Assembly: GCA_030424715.1 (NCBI GenBank)
Contig: JAUHWH010000003.1
Location: 260,148-324,147 of the forward strand
Length of the DNA: 64,000 nucleotides
Source: Bdellovibrionia bacterium
GTDB taxonomy: Bacteria > Bdellovibrionota > Bdellovibrionia > Bdellovibrionales > JAGQZY01
Direction of reading: 5' to 3'
Shown here: positions 2,984 to 8,319 of the stretch, in pieces
Layout of the letters: the number at the start of each line of letters is the position of its first letter
How positions within the stretch are numbered: position 1 is the stretch's first letter
Position numbers and translations under genes: made by a program
The notes under the pieces: generated by a model
The model's input: the letters and a program-made list of their open reading frames with translations, nothing else
What the model was told of the DNA's origin: nothing
Database searches by the model: none

Positions 2984-4858
2984 ATGAAAGTTTTGTCTCA
3001 AACCACGGTTATTGCAATCGCCGCCATTTCACTAAACCTAACCGCTTCTCTGGCCACGGCTGAGGTGAGCTGTCATGAGGTTTTTCATCAAAACGAGGCT
3101 TCGCAAGCCAATCCAACTCCGTTGTTTCTTGCCAACCCTGCTGGCTCGAATATCGGCGCCACTAAAGGCAAAAAGAAAGACCCCTTCAAAGAGGAGTTTA
3201 AGGGATACCTTCGAGAGCAAGGGATTTCCAACACTGAAGCCACAGCACCTCGCTCTGGCGACCCCTACGCAGATTTCCTGACTCACCCTTTGCCGACGGC
3301 AAGAGCACTCTCTATTGTTGGTAAGGTCTCGAAAGAGGATGTTCGGCTGTTCAACAGCAATGCTTCTTCCTTCAAAGCCTTGGCCGCTTTTGAAAAAGAC
3401 TTAAAATTTTTTGAAGAAAAACTTTACATATACCTGATCACTAAAGCCTTTAAAACTCATGATCCGCTGAAACAGGAAAACATCGATTTATCTCATGATC
3501 GTCTTCACGAACTGGAAACTTTAGAAGCCCAACTCAAACCAATCAAACAGTCAATTTTGGAGAGTCGGAGCAAGAAAAAGGCCTATGCCGCTAAGATTGA
3601 GTTAATCAAAGCCCTCAAAGTCTACAGCGCCTTTCTTACAGACCTAACGGGAAAAGAGATCAATCTCCTTCGCCAAGACCACTTTCTGGAGTTTTTTGGT
3701 CTCTCGAAACGCAATGAAATCGCACACTTTCTTCAAACACTCGATAGGGAATTTAGCGACATCATTAACCGACAACGGAGGAGCAACAATGTCGAGCCTG
3801 TAGAGACGAGACATTTGTTTTATCGACTGATCGAATATTTTTTTGGAGAAGGGAACCGGCAGATATTCAACAAAAACGACCTAGGTGTTGTTTCTCGCAT
3901 CGCCGACAGCGCAGAGGCGATTCGACTCATAAAAGCCCTCCGATTGCCGGAAAAAGACGAAGCCTTGTTTTTGTCCGAAATTGCAGAAATTGCCGATCAA
4001 GTCGCTGGAAATAACTCAACGAAAATGGCCGTACAACATCTAATGAACGCCTTGGTGGTCATCAAAGCTTCGGAAGCCGTTTTTGGAAAAAGTGATTCCG
4101 TCTATATTCCTTTTTTGAAAAACAATCAGTTTGAACCCAAATCCTACCTTAGTATTAGAAGTATGATTGAGCACTCCGAACACGTCAGAGTGGTCACCGA
4201 GGCTAAGATCGCGAACTATTTGGACAAGACTGACTCGCACAATGCTCGTATTGCGGATATGGACGCATCACTCACTCGGATCAGTGAGCGCTCCACCTCG
4301 GATATCGAAAAACGAGTGACTGCTTTGCGCACCGAACTTCGAGAACTGGAGATCAAAGATTTTGATCGCAACCTTGATCGACGCAGTCAGGCCCTGCTGC
4401 TCCTCGAGATCAAGCTCGATCAACTGCGAGAAGACGTCGCCAAACGCACTCGTCGTGAGTCGATCAGCGATTTTTTTGAACTCAACAACCGCTGGCAACG
4501 ATTGATCCCAGAGAAGGCCTATCTTTTGGATGGCACCGACTACAAAGCCGTCACCTTCTCAGACGACGTGATCGCCTTTTTTGACAACAATCCCCTACTG
4601 GGTGCGCGCTATTTGGCGACTCTTGGAAAAAACCGCTACGTGGCTGTGAAGAAACAATCGGGGCTGCGTCGGCTCCCCAGTATCCATCCTGACTTTCGAG
4701 ATATTAAAGTGATTCGAAGTCACGGTAAAATCCGAATCATCGGACGCCTGGTGGATGATACCCTCCACTTTTTTCACGTCTACAATTCTGACAAGCCCTA
4801 CGACAATAAGTCCATAGAGAGGATTGTAGAGCAGTTCTCCCCCGGCGCCACACAGTAG
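2984..4858 (+). CDS. secreted, largely alpha-helical / coiled-coil protein of unknown function with a small C-terminal RelE/ParE-like module
   Basis: Signal peptide MKVLSQTTVIAIAAISLNLTASLATA, followed by EVSCHEVF. Long heptad-like helical stretches follow (e.g. RVTALRTELRELEIKDFDRNLDRRSQALLLLEIKLDQLREDV). For the C-terminal ~100 aa see findings. Confidence 0.8.
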   Translation: MKVLSQTTVIAIAAISLNLTASLATAEVSCHEVFHQNEASQANPTPLFLANPAGSNIGATKGKKKDPFKEEFKGYLREQGISNTEATAPRSGDPYADFLTHPLPTARALSIVGKVSKEDVRLFNSNASSFKALAAFEKDLKFFEEKLYIYLITKAFKTHDPLKQENIDLSHDRLHELETLEAQLKPIKQSILESRSKKKAYAAKIELIKALKVYSAFLTDLTGKEINLLRQDHFLEFFGLSKRNEIAHFLQTLDREFSDIINRQRRSNNVEPVETRHLFYRLIEYFFGEGNRQIFNKNDLGVVSRIADSAEAIRLIKALRLPEKDEALFLSEIAEIADQVAGNNSTKMAVQHLMNALVVIKASEAVFGKSDSVYIPFLKNNQFEPKSYLSIRSMIEHSEHVRVVTEAKIANYLDKTDSHNARIADMDASLTRISERSTSDIEKRVTALRTELRELEIKDFDRNLDRRSQALLLLEIKLDQLREDVAKRTRRESISDFFELNNRWQRLIPEKAYLLDGTDYKAVTFSDDVIAFFDNNPLLGARYLATLGKNRYVAVKKQSGLRRLPSIHPDFRDIKVIRSHGKIRIIGRLVDDTLHFFHVYNSDKPYDNKSIERIVEQFSPGATQ

Positions 4859-4964: not shown

Positions 4965-6371
4965 TTATTGCTCCATCGAACGCATTTTGTATCGTTTGGC
5001 CATAAAAGCAAAAATTACGCTCACGCCAAACATCAAGACCGCAAAAAACATAAAAAAGTTGCCGCTAACAGAGTTGGCTGAAGAGGTGTCGATAAACTTA
5101 GAGGCCACCGCCACAATAACGTTACCAAGAAATGTGGTGAGCATCCAAAAACTCATGATGGTGGACTTCATACTTTTTGGGGCTTGGGTGTAAGCGAACT
5201 CCAAACCAGTGATCGAAATCAGGACCTCAGCGATAGTGATCGTTAAATACGGGAAGAACTGCCAAAGGATGCTCAAGCGCTCGGCCTGCTCAACCCCCGC
5301 ACTAATCTGACCTTCGATAATATACTGAATGATAGCAATCTGAACAAAAGAAAACCCGGCAATCACCATACCTGTGGCCATCCGGCGCAAAGGGGTAAAG
5401 TCCACCATCTTTTGCATCGTAGGATACACGAAGAACACAAAAATAGGGATCAAAGCCATAACCATCCAGGGGTTCAAGGCTTGAATGGCTGAAGGCTTAA
5501 GCTCGACTCCATAGACCATGGAGTTCATTTGCATCGCCTGCAGAACCCATGTGGAACCGTGCTGATCAAAAAGTGCCCAGAACACAGGAACCGCAGTAAA
5601 GAAAATGGACATGATCGCAATCACAGAGCGCACCGCCGTGATCACCTCAGGAGAGTGATCTTGCAAAGCGCCGTCGAGAAACTTCACACCCGGTTTTCGA
5701 TTTCTCAGGGCCGACATAAACACTCGGGGCAAAGAATCTGGGTTTTTACCAGTGGGAGGATTAATTTTGTATTGCTTTCTCCCCATCCAAAAAATAACGG
5801 TGGCAATAGCCATAAGGACGCCAGGGATTCCAAACGCCACGGCGGGGCCAAAGTAACCTAACAGATAAGGGGTCATCAAAGAGGACGTCGCCGAACCCAA
5901 ATTGATGATCCAGTAAAACATATTATAAAAACGTGAAATTCCCAATTTATTGGAGGGATGAAATTGATCGCCTCCGAAGGCCGAAACACAGGGTTTGATT
6001 CCGCCAGAGCCGATGGCAATCAAACCAAGCCCCCAGTACAAGCCCAGCTCTGTTTCAAACAAAGCAATCACACCGTGACCCAAACAGTAAACGATAGACA
6101 GCCAAAGAATGACATGAAATTTACCAAAAAAACGGTCGGCCAGGTAGGCCCCAGCCAATGGTGTGAGGTAACAAGCCGCCACAAAGTAGTGATAGACTTC
6201 GGTTGCCACGTTGCCCTGGATGGCCAAGTACTGAACCATAAAGACTGTAAGGATCGTTCTCATACCGTAGAAGCTAAAACGTTCACAACCCTCGTTACCA
6301 ATCAAATATTTGATCTGAGGAGGAAACTTTCCTTGTTGTTCGACTGCGACCTGATTCATATTATACCCCAT
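4965..6371 (-). CDS. proton-dependent oligopeptide transporter (POT/PTR2 family)
   Basis: Carries the PTR2 signature region GNEGCERFSFYGMRTILTVFM...YLADRFFGKF and is polytopic. The start could also be the ATG at 6359. Confidence 0.9.
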   Translation of the reverse strand: MGYNMNQVAVEQQGKFPPQIKYLIGNEGCERFSFYGMRTILTVFMVQYLAIQGNVATEVYHYFVAACYLTPLAGAYLADRFFGKFHVILWLSIVYCLGHGVIALFETELGLYWGLGLIAIGSGGIKPCVSAFGGDQFHPSNKLGISRFYNMFYWIINLGSATSSLMTPYLLGYFGPAVAFGIPGVLMAIATVIFWMGRKQYKINPPTGKNPDSLPRVFMSALRNRKPGVKFLDGALQDHSPEVITAVRSVIAIMSIFFTAVPVFWALFDQHGSTWVLQAMQMNSMVYGVELKPSAIQALNPWMVMALIPIFVFFVYPTMQKMVDFTPLRRMATGMVIAGFSFVQIAIIQYIIEGQISAGVEQAERLSILWQFFPYLTITIAEVLISITGLEFAYTQAPKSMKSTIMSFWMLTTFLGNVIVAVASKFIDTSSANSVSGNFFMFFAVLMFGVSVIFAFMAKRYKMRSMEQ

Positions 6372-7713
6372 GCCCCACGGCCTTTTTCAATGGCCGTTCC
6401 ATTAAGAAAATTGCAACGCCAAGGGACAGTCCCAAGACAATCATCAAACCAAAAAACTCGGACTTTGCCCAATCGGCGGCCGAATAGTAAGTCCCAAGAT
6501 AGCCACCAAAAAAGTTGCCACCGGCCATTGAGAAAAACCACCAGCCCATCAGAAGCCCCACATAGCGCGCCGGCGCCACTTTAGTGACCATGGACAAACC
6601 AATAGGAGAGAAACACAGCTCACCGATTGTCACTATAAACATGGTCGGTAAGAACCAAAGAAAACTCATCTTGGTCTCTGGCGTAAAACCTATCGTGGGA
6701 ATCACTAGAAAAATAAAGCCGACGCCAAGGAGAATGGCTCCTAAAGACATCTTTTTTATACTAGAGGGCTGTCGTTTGCCCATCTTATCCCATAGGCGCA
6801 TCATGGCTGTGGCCAGTAGGACAATGAACAAAGGGTTGATCACTTGCAGCCAAGTCGATGGCATGGTGAAAAGTCCGCCGACGCTCCAGTCGGTGTTGTT
6901 AGTGGAGAGCTGTTGCATGGTGTTGCCCTGCTGCTCAAACACACCCCAGAAAATAATGTTGGAAACACTAAGTACGATAATACCAATGATGGCCTTCCAT
7001 TGCGCTTTGGTCAAAGGCGCTTGATCGGCCGCATTGGTGTCAGCCTTGTGCCGCGCTTGACTGTCAGCCAAATATTTTTGACCCCAAACATACACAGCCA
7101 AACCAAACCCCATTCCAATACCAGCAGCGGTGAACCCGTAGTGCCAGCCATAGACTTCGCCGAGAGTTCCACAAACCAGACCGGAGAAAATAGCTCCGAG
7201 ATTGATACCCATATAAAAGATAGTAAAAGCACCATCACGACGAGGATCACCCTCTGGATACAGATCACCCACCTGAGTGGAGATGTTGGGTTTGAAGGCT
7301 CCGTTACCAAAAATTAAAAACACCAGGGCAATTAAGAAGACCGACTCAAAGGCCATTAAGAAATGACCGATCATCATTAAAACACCACCAATCAAGATCG
7401 CCTTCTTTTGGCCCAGGAACCGATCGGCAATGAAGCCACCAGCCAGTGGAGTACAATAGACTAAGAAAGTATAAAGCCCATAAACCAAGGAAGCCAGTTG
7501 CTCCACGTTTTGATCAGGAAACAGCCCCTCGATAAAGGTGAAACCATAAATGGTGGAACCACCACGGGCATGAACAATCAGCTCTTTGGACATATAGAGA
7601 ATCAACAGGGCACGCATCCCGTAGTAGGAAAAACGCTCCCACATTTCGGTGAGAAATAAAATGAAAAGGCCAATGGGATGACCGAACAAAGTTTTTTCGC
7701 TTGCTGTTGTCAT
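6361..7713 (-). CDS. proton-dependent di/tripeptide transporter (POT family, DtpT-like)
   Basis: Motifs LFGHPIGLFILFLTEMWERFSYYGMRALLILYM and GGFIADRFLGQKK. It is a tandem paralogue of the downstream gene, and its stop overlaps the next start by 11 nt. Confidence 0.9.
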   Translation of the reverse strand: MTTASEKTLFGHPIGLFILFLTEMWERFSYYGMRALLILYMSKELIVHARGGSTIYGFTFIEGLFPDQNVEQLASLVYGLYTFLVYCTPLAGGFIADRFLGQKKAILIGGVLMMIGHFLMAFESVFLIALVFLIFGNGAFKPNISTQVGDLYPEGDPRRDGAFTIFYMGINLGAIFSGLVCGTLGEVYGWHYGFTAAGIGMGFGLAVYVWGQKYLADSQARHKADTNAADQAPLTKAQWKAIIGIIVLSVSNIIFWGVFEQQGNTMQQLSTNNTDWSVGGLFTMPSTWLQVINPLFIVLLATAMMRLWDKMGKRQPSSIKKMSLGAILLGVGFIFLVIPTIGFTPETKMSFLWFLPTMFIVTIGELCFSPIGLSMVTKVAPARYVGLLMGWWFFSMAGGNFFGGYLGTYYSAADWAKSEFFGLMIVLGLSLGVAIFLMERPLKKAVGHGV

Positions 7714-7943
7714 GATTCTCTCTTTTTATTGTTAAAGAAGTGTTTCTACCCTTGTGGCATCGGAGAATCCAGGGTTTCAAACTGCGTCAATCCCATAAAT
7801 GCTTGATTTTCTTACCAGAAAAACCGACGGGAGCCTTTCGCCTTCAACCATTACAGTGACAAATAATGTAATTCTTTCAGTAACTTACAAGACTTCTCTA
7901 GGGCTGTTCTCGACTTTTACAAAAGAACGAAGGCTCTATTACG

Positions 7944-7969
7944 AAAAAAGCCTGCTTACAAAGCAGGCT
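7944..7969 (-). terminator. rho-independent terminator of the histone-like gene
   Basis: Perfect 9-bp stem AGCCTGCTT (7949-7957) / AAGCAGGCT (7961-7969) with a 3-nt loop. The A-run at 7944-7949 is a U-run on the minus strand. The terminator lies 38 nt past the stop at 8007. Confidence 0.8.
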
Positions 7970-8006
7970 TACTGAAATCAGGGTGTTTTCTAGTTTCGAA
8001 AGCCTT

Positions 8007-8246
8007 TTAAGCCATGAAATCGTGGGCACGCACGGTTTTACGGCCGTTGCTTTTAGCTCGAGTGGCTGCTTGCGAAACGTACCACTGAAGAACATTGTTT
8101 GCTCCCTCAAGAGCATCGGCGGCAACATTGACGCCTTCGGCTTTCAAAGCTTCTTTAAACTTGCTTTGCACAATAAGAACTTCGCCTTTCTTTTTCGCTG
8201 TCGCTCTTTTTTTTGTCGCTACTTTTTTCTTTTTCTTTTTCGCCAT
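8007..8246 (-). CDS. bacterial histone-fold protein (Bd0055-like) with lysine-rich N-terminal tail
   Basis: ATG at 8246 with AGGAG 7 nt upstream. The C-terminal 59 aa (EVLIVQSKFKEALKAEG...AATRAKSNGRKTVRAHDF) resemble the Bdellovibrio histone Bd0055 as I recall it. The N-terminus is MAKKKKKKVATKKRATAKKK. Confidence 0.8.
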   Translation of the reverse strand: MAKKKKKKVATKKRATAKKKGEVLIVQSKFKEALKAEGVNVAADALEGANNVLQWYVSQAATRAKSNGRKTVRAHDFMA

Positions 8247-8291
8247 CGTTATCTCCTTGTTGAACATGAACTGTAAGACGTCCGACGATAG

Positions 8292-8319
8292 TGGTTGATA
8301 ACAAAAGTTTTATCAACCA
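8292..8319. promoter_or_regulatory. perfect 10-bp inverted repeat (TGGTTGATAA-N8-TTATCAACCA) between lpdA and the histone gene
   Basis: Read directly from the sequence. It lies 46 nt upstream of the histone ATG and 82 nt downstream of the lpdA stop. No U-run follows on the minus strand, so it is not a canonical terminator. It may be an operator or an RNA hairpin. Confidence 0.35.

What the first reader, a model, noticed from the sequence alone, without database searches (positions are those of the whole stretch)
8007..8267. Bd0055-like bacterial histone carrying a 20-residue lysine-rich N-terminal tail
This is a 79-aa ORF with a strong RBS and its own terminator. Residues 21-79 (GEVLIVQSKFKEALKAEGVNVAADALEGANNVLQWYVSQAATRAKSNGRKTVRAHDFMA) align by eye to the Bdellovibrio bacteriovorus histone Bd0055 as I remember it (AEVLVVTSKVKKLIKEKG...ESAKADGRKTVMARD). 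That corresponds to a minimal helix-loop-long helix-loop-helix histone fold with the GRKTV loop. Unlike that protein as I recall it, this one begins MAKKKKKKVATKKRATAKKK, with 13 of 20 residues K or R. No alternative in-frame start would retain the fold and skip the tail. A tailed bacterial histone could bind or bridge DNA differently from the tail-less end-on binding reported for Bd0055. The tail is a conceivable target for acetylation or proteolysis. It is encoded by AAAAAGAAAAAGAAAAAA, a tract prone to polymerase or ribosome slippage.
Basis: partly seen in the sequence, partly recalled or inferred. Interest (0 to 1): 0.7.

Follow-up and report, generated by a model that had tools for sequence, protein, structure and literature searches.

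The report
Lysine-tailed bacterial histone, HLp/face-to-face type
This is a real, stand-alone gene for a small bacterial histone with a lysine-rich N-terminal tail, but it resembles the tetrameric DNA-wrapping "face-to-face" histones more than Bd0055, and basic tails on those histones are common and already described, so it is a new member of a known kind.

Summary
The ORF is real. It is a minus-strand CDS at 8246..8007 encoding 79 aa, with an AAGGAG Shine-Dalgarno, a promoter-like motif conserved in relatives, and an intrinsic terminator.

Residues 21-79 form an alpha3-truncated histone fold. The AF2 core has pLDDT 85-95, and Foldseek gives TM 0.94 and rmsd 0.8 A to HLp.

The family profile matches the tetrameric Leptospira histone HLp far better (E 3e-21, 78 bits) than HBb/Bd0055 (E 2e-11, 47 bits). 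The protein keeps the face-to-face (FtF) tetramerisation residues (R63, S66, N67, R69). Bd0055 has S and D at the R63 and N67 positions. It is therefore best read as an FtF-type histone, not a Bd0055-type dimer. The tetramer itself could not be modelled here.

The tail (12 of 20 residues K/R, predicted disordered) is not unusual. 116 of 117 close homologues carry MAKKK... tails (median 19 aa, 51% K+R). Schwab et al. [quoted passage not shown]

The slippage idea is weak: the longest A-run is 8. No experimental study of such tails was found in the papers searched.

Modest interest; new member of a known kind.

The parts
8007..8246 (-). Histone gene CDS: 79 codons plus TAA stop
   Evidence: An identical protein, P0001, is in public assemblies.
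8187..8246 (-). Codons 1-20: lysine-rich N-terminal tail MAKKKKKKVATKKRATAKKK (12 of 20 K/R, no acidic residue)
   Evidence: AF2 pLDDT is ~54 with no secondary structure. Tails of the same kind occur in 116 of 117 homologues. K positions are kept through synonymous AAA/AAG changes in relatives.
8010..8186 (-). Codons 21-79: alpha3-truncated histone fold. Helices are alpha1 27-35, alpha2 43-66 and alpha3 75-78. The L2 loop is G68-R69-K70-T71-V72. The RD clamp is R69/D76. FtF interface residues are R63, S66, N67, R69.
   Evidence: Residue mapping to HLp follows PMC12701072.
8253..8258 (-). Shine-Dalgarno AAGGAG, 6 nt upstream of the ATG
   Evidence: Read directly from the sequence. Equivalent SDs precede the MAKK start in most relatives.
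8288..8316 (-). Candidate sigma-70-type promoter: TTGATA (8316..8311), 17-nt spacer, CACTAT (8293..8288)
   Evidence: It falls below the threshold of the consensus scan. However, TTGATA-N17-nAnnAT (CACTAT, GAGTAT, CAATAT, CAGTAT, GAAGAT) recurs upstream of the orthologue in all five loci L003-L007. Inferred, not shown.
7940..7970 (-). Intrinsic terminator: 10-bp stem, 3-nt loop, T-tract

Best explanation
The gene encodes an abundant-type nucleoid protein of a Bdellovibrionales-like bacterium. It is a singlet, alpha3-truncated histone of the bacterial face-to-face (FtF, HLp-like) class, extended by a 20-residue disordered lysine-rich N-terminal tail.

Proposed mechanism:
1. Two chains form the usual head-to-tail histone dimer.
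2. Two dimers associate through the end of alpha2, loop L2 and alpha3 (R63, S66, N67, R69) into a closed tetramer.
3. DNA is bound non-specifically and wrapped around the tetramer, as shown for HLp (~60 bp). Contacts would come from the conserved S28-K29, K31 and K35 on alpha1 and K70-T71 in L2.
4. The four tails contribute about +48 charge per tetramer. They emerge next to the alpha1 DNA-binding face. They would act as flexible electrostatic arms that raise affinity, neutralise wrapped or adjacent DNA, and may bridge neighbouring duplexes. This resembles H1-type or HupB/MDP1-type lysine-rich tails.

What is shown here: the fold, the family relationship, conservation of the interface and DNA-contact residues, and the presence, disorder and conservation of the tail.

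What is inferred: tetramer formation, wrapping, and the role of the tail.
For: Fold:
- The AF2 model has a core pLDDT of 85-95 and the three expected helices.
- Foldseek top hits are HLp 9qt0 (TM 0.94, rmsd 0.8 A, 41% id), then HBb (TM 0.84-0.90, 35% id), then HTkC (TM 0.87).

Class:
- Profile against PDB sequences gives HLp 3.2e-21 (78 bits), HBb 1.6e-11 (47 bits) and HTkC 2.2e-9.
- A single-sequence search gives the same order.
- N67, R69, T71 and D76 are invariant, and R63 is >=90% conserved, in 56 diverse homologues.
- R at the R63 position occurs in 115 of 117 homologues and N at the N67 position in 117 of 117.
- These are the FtF-defining positions R48/N52/R54/T56/D61 (PMC11390915) and the HLp interface residues R49/S52/N53/R55 (PMC12701072). 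HBb has S and D at the R63 and N67 positions (alignment).
- The HLp DNA-contact residues S14, K15, K17, K21 and T57 map to S28, K29, K31, K35 and T71, all >=90% conserved.

Taxa:
- Relatives lie in Bdellovibrionota, Planctomycetota and Myxococcota, the phyla listed for bacterial FtF histones. Others lie in Acidobacteriota, Krumholzibacteriota and Elusimicrobiota.
- Halobacteriovorax homologues are in the family. The H. marinus protein E1WYC3 is classed 'Face-to-face' by Schwab et al..

Tail:
- pLDDT is ~54.
- It is present in 116 of 117 homologues, with median length 19 aa, 51% K+R and 0.6% D+E.
- Tail length ranges from 4 to ~38 aa across genomes, always behind an SD and an MAKK start.

Gene unit:
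- The gene has its own SD, a promoter-like motif conserved in relatives, and a terminator.
- Synteny sucB-lpdA-histone-POT-POT is conserved in relatives.
Against: - The tetramer, which defines FtF histones, could not be modelled.
- This subfamily has 2-3 extra C-terminal residues after D76-F77 (here M78-A79). In HLp and D4GZE0 the chain ends at that F/residue, and its carboxylate contacts the conserved Arg. The interface may therefore differ.
- It keeps K70 (RKT). Schwab et al. describe this as typical of bacterial dimers and nucleosomal histones and not strongly conserved in the FtF profile.
- The nearest genomes are labelled Bdellovibrionales / Pseudobdellovibrionaceae (class Bdellovibrionia). 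Schwab et al. place FtF histones in class Bacteriovoracia and dimers in Bdellovibrionia.
- There are no expression, proteomic or DNA-binding data for this protein.
Confidence: 0.65

Rival explanations
1. It is a Bd0055/HBb-type 'bacterial dimer' histone that merely acquired a tail. It stays dimeric and bends DNA or coats it end-on, with the tail modulating that mode.
For: - It shares 34-35% identity and an rmsd of 0.8-0.9 A with HBb structures.
- It has the RKT motif with K70 (PMC11390915).
- The nearest genomes are labelled Bdellovibrionales, the class in which dimer histones were reported.
- The C-terminal 2-3 residue extension could disturb the FtF interface.
Against: - The profile score to HLp exceeds that to HBb by 31 bits, ten orders of magnitude in E-value.
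- R63 and N67 are essentially invariant here. The dimer class is defined by lacking them, and HBb has S and D there.
- There is a one-residue L1 gap against HBb and none against HLp.
Confidence: 0.2
2. The tail is mainly an expression device or drifting low-complexity sequence. A-rich codons after the start would boost translation initiation, and repeat expansion would be neutral. On this view the tail has no specific role in chromatin.
For: - Tail length and sequence are very variable (4 to ~45 aa), while only M-A-K-K-K is near-invariant.
- 23 of the 109 singlets among the top 150 representatives have no tail at all, so the fold works without it.
Against: - The composition is tightly constrained (51% K+R, 0.6% D+E over 117 tails) rather than drifting.
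- K positions are held through synonymous AAA/AAG changes while the spacer residues vary.
- Doublet relatives almost never carry a basic tail: 1 of 41 doublets, against 50 of 109 singlets. This argues for a link to how singlets assemble on DNA rather than to translation.
Confidence: 0.1
3. It is not a chromatin protein. It would be a small basic histone-fold protein with another role, such as a transcription-factor subunit or an RNA- or ribosome-associated protein.
For: - There is no Pfam hit for the query itself.
- The neighbouring genes are metabolic or transport genes with no chromatin link.
Against: - The closest solved relatives are all DNA-binding prokaryotic histones.
- The DNA-contact residues of HLp are conserved.
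- It is a monocistronic unit with a strong SD and a terminator, as expected for an abundant nucleoid-associated protein.
Confidence: 0.04

Closest known systems
HLp of Leptospira perolatii (PDB 9QT0/9QT1/9QT2), bacterial face-to-face (FtF) histone; PMC12701072
   Same: - It is the best sequence and structure match: E 3e-21 with the family profile, TM 0.94, rmsd 0.8 A, 41% id.
- It has the same helix lengths and no gaps in the alignment.
- The interface residues R49/S52/N53/R55 and the RD clamp are conserved.
- The DNA-contact residues S14/K15/K17/K21/T57 are conserved.
   Different: - HLp has only a ~7-residue N-terminal segment, disordered in the crystal and not strikingly basic. This protein has 20 residues with 12 K/R.
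- HLp ends at F63. This protein adds M78-A79.
- HLp has R-T-T in L2. This protein has R-K-T.
Tailed bacterial FtF histones described bioinformatically by Schwab et al. 2024 (for example E1WYC3 of Halobacteriovorax marinus SJ and D0LYZ1 of Haliangium ochraceum); PMC11390915
   Same: - They are singlet alpha3 histones with positively charged N-terminal tails.
- They come from the same phyla.
- The reported length range of 51-108 aa (in the stretch of the source data that was read) brackets this one.
- Halobacteriovorax and Haliangiales/Kofleriaceae homologues are in this protein's family.
   Different: - The nearest genomes to this window are labelled Bdellovibrionales / Pseudobdellovibrionaceae rather than Bacteriovoracia.
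- I could not retrieve the E1WYC3 or D0LYZ1 sequences to align them directly.
HBb / Bd0055 of Bdellovibrio bacteriovorus (PDB 8CMP, 8FVX, 9EZZ), 'bacterial dimer' histone
   Same: - It is an alpha3-truncated histone fold with the GRKTV loop and RD clamp, at 34-35% identity.
- It comes from the same phylum.
   Different: - HBb has no tail.
- HBb has S and D where this protein has the interface residues R63 and N67.
- There is a one-residue L1 indel.
- The profile score is much lower, 47 against 78 bits.
Lysine-rich tails of other bacterial nucleoid proteins (mycobacterial HupB/MDP1 C-terminal tail; chlamydial Hc1/Hc2; eukaryotic H1 C-terminal domain). From general knowledge; MDP1 appeared in the paper-search results.
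   Same: They are disordered K/A/T-rich low-complexity segments attached to a folded DNA-binding domain, thought to add non-specific electrostatic DNA binding and compaction. One family member gave a weak Pfam HC2 match.
   Different: The folded domain is unrelated (HU fold or winged helix) and the tail sits at the other terminus. This is an analogy of mechanism only, not homology.

Membership tests
alpha3-truncated prokaryotic histones (histone fold) | Helix-loop-long helix-loop-short helix, with alpha3 reduced to about one turn | tested here: met
   AF2 helices are 27-35, 43-66 and 75-78. Foldseek top hits are HLp, HBb and HTkC at TM 0.84-0.94.
alpha3-truncated prokaryotic histones (histone fold) | RxTxxxxD motif / RD clamp in L2-alpha3 | tested here: met
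   R69, T71 and D76 are invariant in 56 homologues.
Bacterial face-to-face (FtF) histones | Conserved dimer-dimer interface residues (HMM R48 and N52; HLp R49, S52, N53, R55) | tested here: met
   R63, S66, N67 and R69 are present with identical spacing. R occurs in 115 of 117 and N in 117 of 117 homologues.
Bacterial face-to-face (FtF) histones | Forms (or is confidently predicted to form) a closed homotetramer | not testable with these tools
Bacterial face-to-face (FtF) histones | Clusters by sequence with known FtF members rather than with dimers | tested here: met
   The profile gives HLp 78 bits against HBb 47 bits. The HBb-type S..D signature was not seen among the 109 singlets of the top-150 representatives; nearly all of those with a readable motif carry R..N.
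Bacterial face-to-face (FtF) histones | Chain ends right after the D-F of alpha3, so that the C-terminal carboxylate pairs with the conserved Arg of the opposing dimer | tested here: not met
   This protein and most of its subfamily carry 2-3 further residues, here M78-A79. The effect on the interface is unknown. I treat this as a variant feature, not a core definition.
Bacterial face-to-face (FtF) histones | Positively charged N-terminal tail (common, not obligatory) | tested here: met
   The tail has 12 of 20 K/R.
Bacterial dimer histones (HBb/Bd0055 type) | Lack of the R48/N52 interface residues | tested here: not met
   Both residues are present and near-invariant.
Bacterial dimer histones (HBb/Bd0055 type) | Sequence clustering with HBb (the category was defined by CLANS clustering) | tested here: not met
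   HBb is only the second-best solved relative, 31 bits below HLp. No CLANS analysis with the authors' data set was possible.
Bacterial dimer histones (HBb/Bd0055 type) | RKTxxxxD with conserved Lys | tested here: met
   K70 is conserved in >=90% of homologues. This feature is shared with nucleosomal histones, so it does not discriminate.

The most novel reading that the evidence does not exclude
In this Bdellovibrionales-like lineage an FtF-type histone with a long H1-like lysine tail, rather than a Bd0055-type dimer, may be the main chromatin protein. Schwab et al. reported only dimer-type histones for that class. The four tails per tetramer would act as a built-in 'linker histone'. They would neutralise and bridge DNA to hyper-compact the nucleoid of a small predatory cell. 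They would be regulated by lysine acetylation or proteolysis during the life cycle, which would be a bacterial counterpart of histone-tail regulation.
Probability: 0.15. Interest if true: 0.6.

Novelty: new member of a known kind. Interest (0 to 1): 0.3.

Why it matters
Bacterial histones have been characterised structurally and biochemically only in the last few years. Only two have been treated that way in the papers read here: HBb, a dimer that bends or coats DNA, and HLp, a tetramer that wraps DNA.

This gene adds a clean, independently transcribed example of the tailed FtF subgroup, from a Bdellovibrionales-like genome. The survey made here gives numbers for something the literature states only qualitatively:
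- Among close relatives the basic tail is almost universal (116 of 117).
- It is compositionally constrained (51% K+R, under 1% acidic).
- It is hugely variable in length (4 to ~45 aa).
- It is largely confined to singlets rather than doublets.

No experiment on such a tail was found in the literature searched. The protein would therefore be a reasonable substrate for asking whether bacterial histone tails affect wrapping, bridging or regulation. It does not open a new category.

Tried and rejected
- Pfam and NCBIfam scans of the query gave no significant family: no Pfam hit at all, and NF043032 archaeal histone at E 0.033 only. Scanning 56 family members gave only weak histone-clan hits: PF00808 in 10 of 56 (best E 4e-4), plus CENP-T_C, DUF1931 and Histone. 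These support the clan but not the class.
The defining FtF tetramer is therefore untested.
- Polymerase or ribosome slippage on the A-tract is rejected as a notable feature. The longest A-run is 8, the window has 56 A/T runs of 7 or more, the tract is interrupted by G, and relatives keep lysine through mixed AAA/AAG codons.
- A downstream alternative start (ATT25/GTG26) is rejected. There is no SD, it would truncate the conserved core, and the M-A-K-K-K N-terminus behind an SD is conserved across phyla.
- The upstream ATG at 8267 is rejected as the start. It overlaps the SD, and homologues start at MAKK.
- No second histone-fold gene is in the window: a six-frame hmmsearch with the core profile finds only this ORF.
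- There are no tRNA or Rfam features in the window.
- The inverted repeat TTGATAA-N8-TTATCAA at the candidate -35 is not conserved in relatives, so it is probably chance.
- I could not obtain the E1WYC3 or D0LYZ1 sequences for a direct alignment. Only their category labels were available.

Full report
**1. The observation**

The feature lies on the minus strand. The ORF listing gives an 86-aa ORF at 8007..8267. The ATG at 8267, however, sits inside or just upstream of the ribosome-binding site and has no SD of its own. The ATG at 8246 is preceded by AAGGAG (8258..8253) with a 6-nt spacer.

A 10-bp GC-containing hairpin with a T-tract lies at 7970..7948 on the minus strand, 37 nt after the stop.

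Two small corrections apply:
- The tail has 12, not 13, basic residues out of 20.
- In-frame ATT25 and GTG26 exist, but they lack an SD and would cut into the conserved core.

The ORF is not a chance reading frame:
- The identical protein occurs in public assemblies with the same neighbours.
- 120 homologues and 258 genomic relatives conserve the frame and the tail.

**2. The fold**

Pfam finds nothing for the query. PDB sequence search, in contrast, hits three prokaryotic histones:

| Solved histone | E-value |
|---|---|
| HLp of Leptospira perolatii | 7e-7 |
| HBb/Bd0055 | 4e-5 |
| HTkC (weakly) | 0.55 |

An AF2 model built on 56 homologues has pLDDT 85-95 for residues 21-79, with helices 27-35, 43-66 and 75-78. 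Residues 1-20 have pLDDT ~54 and no secondary structure.

Foldseek against the PDB returns these top hits, followed by archaeal and eukaryotic histones:

| Hit | TM | rmsd | Identity |
|---|---|---|---|
| HLp | 0.94 | 0.8 A | 41% |
| HBb | 0.84-0.90 | 0.8-0.9 A | 34-35% |
| HTkC | 0.87 | 1.1 A | 28-29% |

The histone fold, of the alpha3-truncated type, is therefore confirmed.

**3. Which kind of bacterial histone**

Schwab et al. (PMC11390915) split alpha3 histones mainly into two groups:
- Face-to-face (FtF) histones are defined by a closed homotetramer and by conserved R48, N52, R54, T56 and D61.
- 'Bacterial dimers' (HBb/Bd0055) lack R48 and N52.

Hu et al. (PMC12701072) solved the bacterial FtF histone HLp. 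It is a stable tetramer that wraps ~60 bp. Its dimer-dimer contacts are made by R49, S52 and N53 with R55, T61 and F63.

In this protein the equivalent residues are R63, S66, N67, R69, T71 and D76, with identical spacing.
- Across 56 diverse homologues N67, R69, T71 and D76 are invariant and R63 is >=90% conserved.
- Across 117 homologues the counts are R 115/117 and N 117/117.
- HBb has S and D at the R63 and N67 positions (alignment).

A profile of the family scores HLp at 78 bits (E 3e-21), HBb at 47 bits (E 2e-11) and HTkC at 40 bits.

The HLp DNA-contact residues S14, K15, K17, K21 and T57 correspond to S28, K29, K31, K35 and T71, all >=90% conserved.

The family's taxonomic spread includes the phyla listed for bacterial FtF histones: Bdellovibrionota, Planctomycetota and Myxococcota. 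It also includes Acidobacteriota, Krumholzibacteriota and Elusimicrobiota. It contains Halobacteriovorax proteins, and the H. marinus protein E1WYC3 is labelled 'Face-to-face' in the authors' source data.

I conclude that the protein belongs with the FtF/HLp class and not with Bd0055.

Four caveats apply:
- The defining tetramer could not be modelled.
- The subfamily has 2-3 extra C-terminal residues.
- It keeps the Lys of RKT.
- The nearest genomes are labelled Bdellovibrionales / Pseudobdellovibrionaceae, class Bdellovibrionia. Schwab et al. reported dimers, not FtF histones, for that class.

**4. The tail**

The tail is a family trait and not a peculiarity of this protein.
- Of 117 homologues with a recognisable core, 116 have an N-terminal extension. 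The median length is 19 aa, the range is 0-43, K+R is 51% and D+E is 0.6%.
- M1 and A2 are invariant and K3-K5 are >=90% conserved.
- In 80 genomic loci the tail ranges from MAKK (Elusimicrobiota) to ~38 residues, nearly always directly behind an SD.

A profile of the core alone was searched against 1.84 billion representatives. It finds 2093 relatives at E <= 1e-3 and 417 at E <= 1e-10. The top 150 break down as follows:

| Type | Total | Long K/R-rich tail | Short basic tail | No tail |
|---|---|---|---|---|
| Singlets | 109 | 31 | 19 | 23 |
| Doublets | 41 | 0 | 1 | 29 |

The remaining singlets and doublets have other N-terminal extensions or are fragments.

Among the closest relatives (L003-L007) the lysine positions are kept while AAA and AAG interchange and the small spacer residues (A/T/S/V) vary. 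That is the pattern expected for selection on charge.

[quoted passage not shown] It also shows length distributions and an alignment of two such tails with the H3 tail. I found no experimental work on these tails. The HLp that was studied has only a short N-terminal segment that is disordered in the crystals.

**5. The gene unit and context**

The gene order on the minus strand is sucA-sucB-lpdA, then the histone gene, then two PTR2/POT-family transporters. The same order is found in the Bdellovibrionales MAG loci L003 and L004, and the histone-POT-POT part in L005-L007.

Upstream of the gene, TTGATA-N17-CACTAT (8316..8288) is below the threshold of the consensus scan. The same TTGATA-N17-nAnnAT arrangement recurs upstream of the orthologue in all five loci L003-L007. 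Together with the SD and the terminator, this suggests a monocistronic, independently expressed gene.

No second histone-fold ORF is in the window.

**6. Mechanism (inferred)**

The proposed sequence is: a head-to-tail dimer forms; two dimers join through R63, S66, N67 and R69 into a tetramer; DNA is wrapped non-specifically as for HLp; and the four disordered tails (about +48 per tetramer) emerge beside the alpha1 DNA-binding face.

The tails would add electrostatic affinity, neutralise wrapped or neighbouring DNA, and possibly bridge duplexes.

Rival readings are scored in the report sections:
- a tailed Bd0055-type dimer;
- a tail that is mainly a translational or low-complexity by-product;
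- a non-chromatin role.

**7. The slippage idea**

The longest pure A-run in the gene is 8 nt (8207..8214). The window contains 56 A/T runs of 7 or more, and the Lys tract is interrupted by G. Nothing here singles the tract out.

**8. Verdict**

The protein is a new member of a known kind, the tailed bacterial FtF-type histones. Interest is modest and rests on the still untested function of such tails and on the Bdellovibrionales-like host.

Noticed in passing
window 8288..8316 (-); L003-L007 upstream of the histone orthologue: A promoter-like motif, TTGATA-N17-(CACTAT / GAGTAT / CAATAT / CAGTAT / GAAGAT), is conserved upstream of the histone gene in the window and in all five related MAG loci L003-L007. 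In the window it scores below the generic sigma-70 scan threshold.
   Followed up: partly
window 8295..8316 (-): A perfect 7-bp inverted repeat, TTGATAA-N8-TTATCAA, overlaps the candidate -35 element. It is not conserved in L003-L007, so it is probably chance rather than an operator.
   Followed up: partly
proteins P0141, P0143, P0239, P0254, P0260 (representative search): Several histone-fold doublets related to this family begin with hydrophobic, signal-peptide-like N-termini (for example MKTIALPVLFIVSAVVAAGAATS...). This hints at exported histone-fold proteins.
   Followed up: no
proteins P0152, P0153, P0158, P0176: Some singlet relatives have no N-terminal tail but carry long acidic, E/A/P-rich C-terminal tails. 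This is the opposite charge arrangement to the protein studied here.
   Followed up: no
protein P0220 (650 aa): An FtF-like histone fold sits at the extreme C-terminus of a 650-aa protein. By eye, the N-terminal part of that protein contains a sigma-factor region-4-like helix-turn-helix stretch. It is an unusual fusion.
   Followed up: no
window 2984..4858 (+) versus L001 7123..8994: In the Logan contig that carries the identical histone, the flanking genes are 98.5-99.8% identical to the window. This 624-aa ORF (no Pfam hit on record) is only 70% identical, which marks a locally hypervariable gene between near-identical strains.
   Followed up: no
window 4965..7713 (-): Two tandem PTR2/POT-family peptide transporter genes, only ~24% identical to each other, overlap by 11 nt (6361..6371) directly downstream of the histone gene. 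The pair is syntenic in all close relatives.
   Followed up: partly
loci L010, L019, L021, L035, L044 (Krumholzibacteriota and an unclassified MAG): In these genomes the histone appears to start at a GTG read as Met (printed 'VAKKK' inside longer stop-to-stop ORFs). Automated gene calls may therefore give spuriously long N-termini, as happened with the two database versions of HLp noted in PMC12701072.
   Followed up: no
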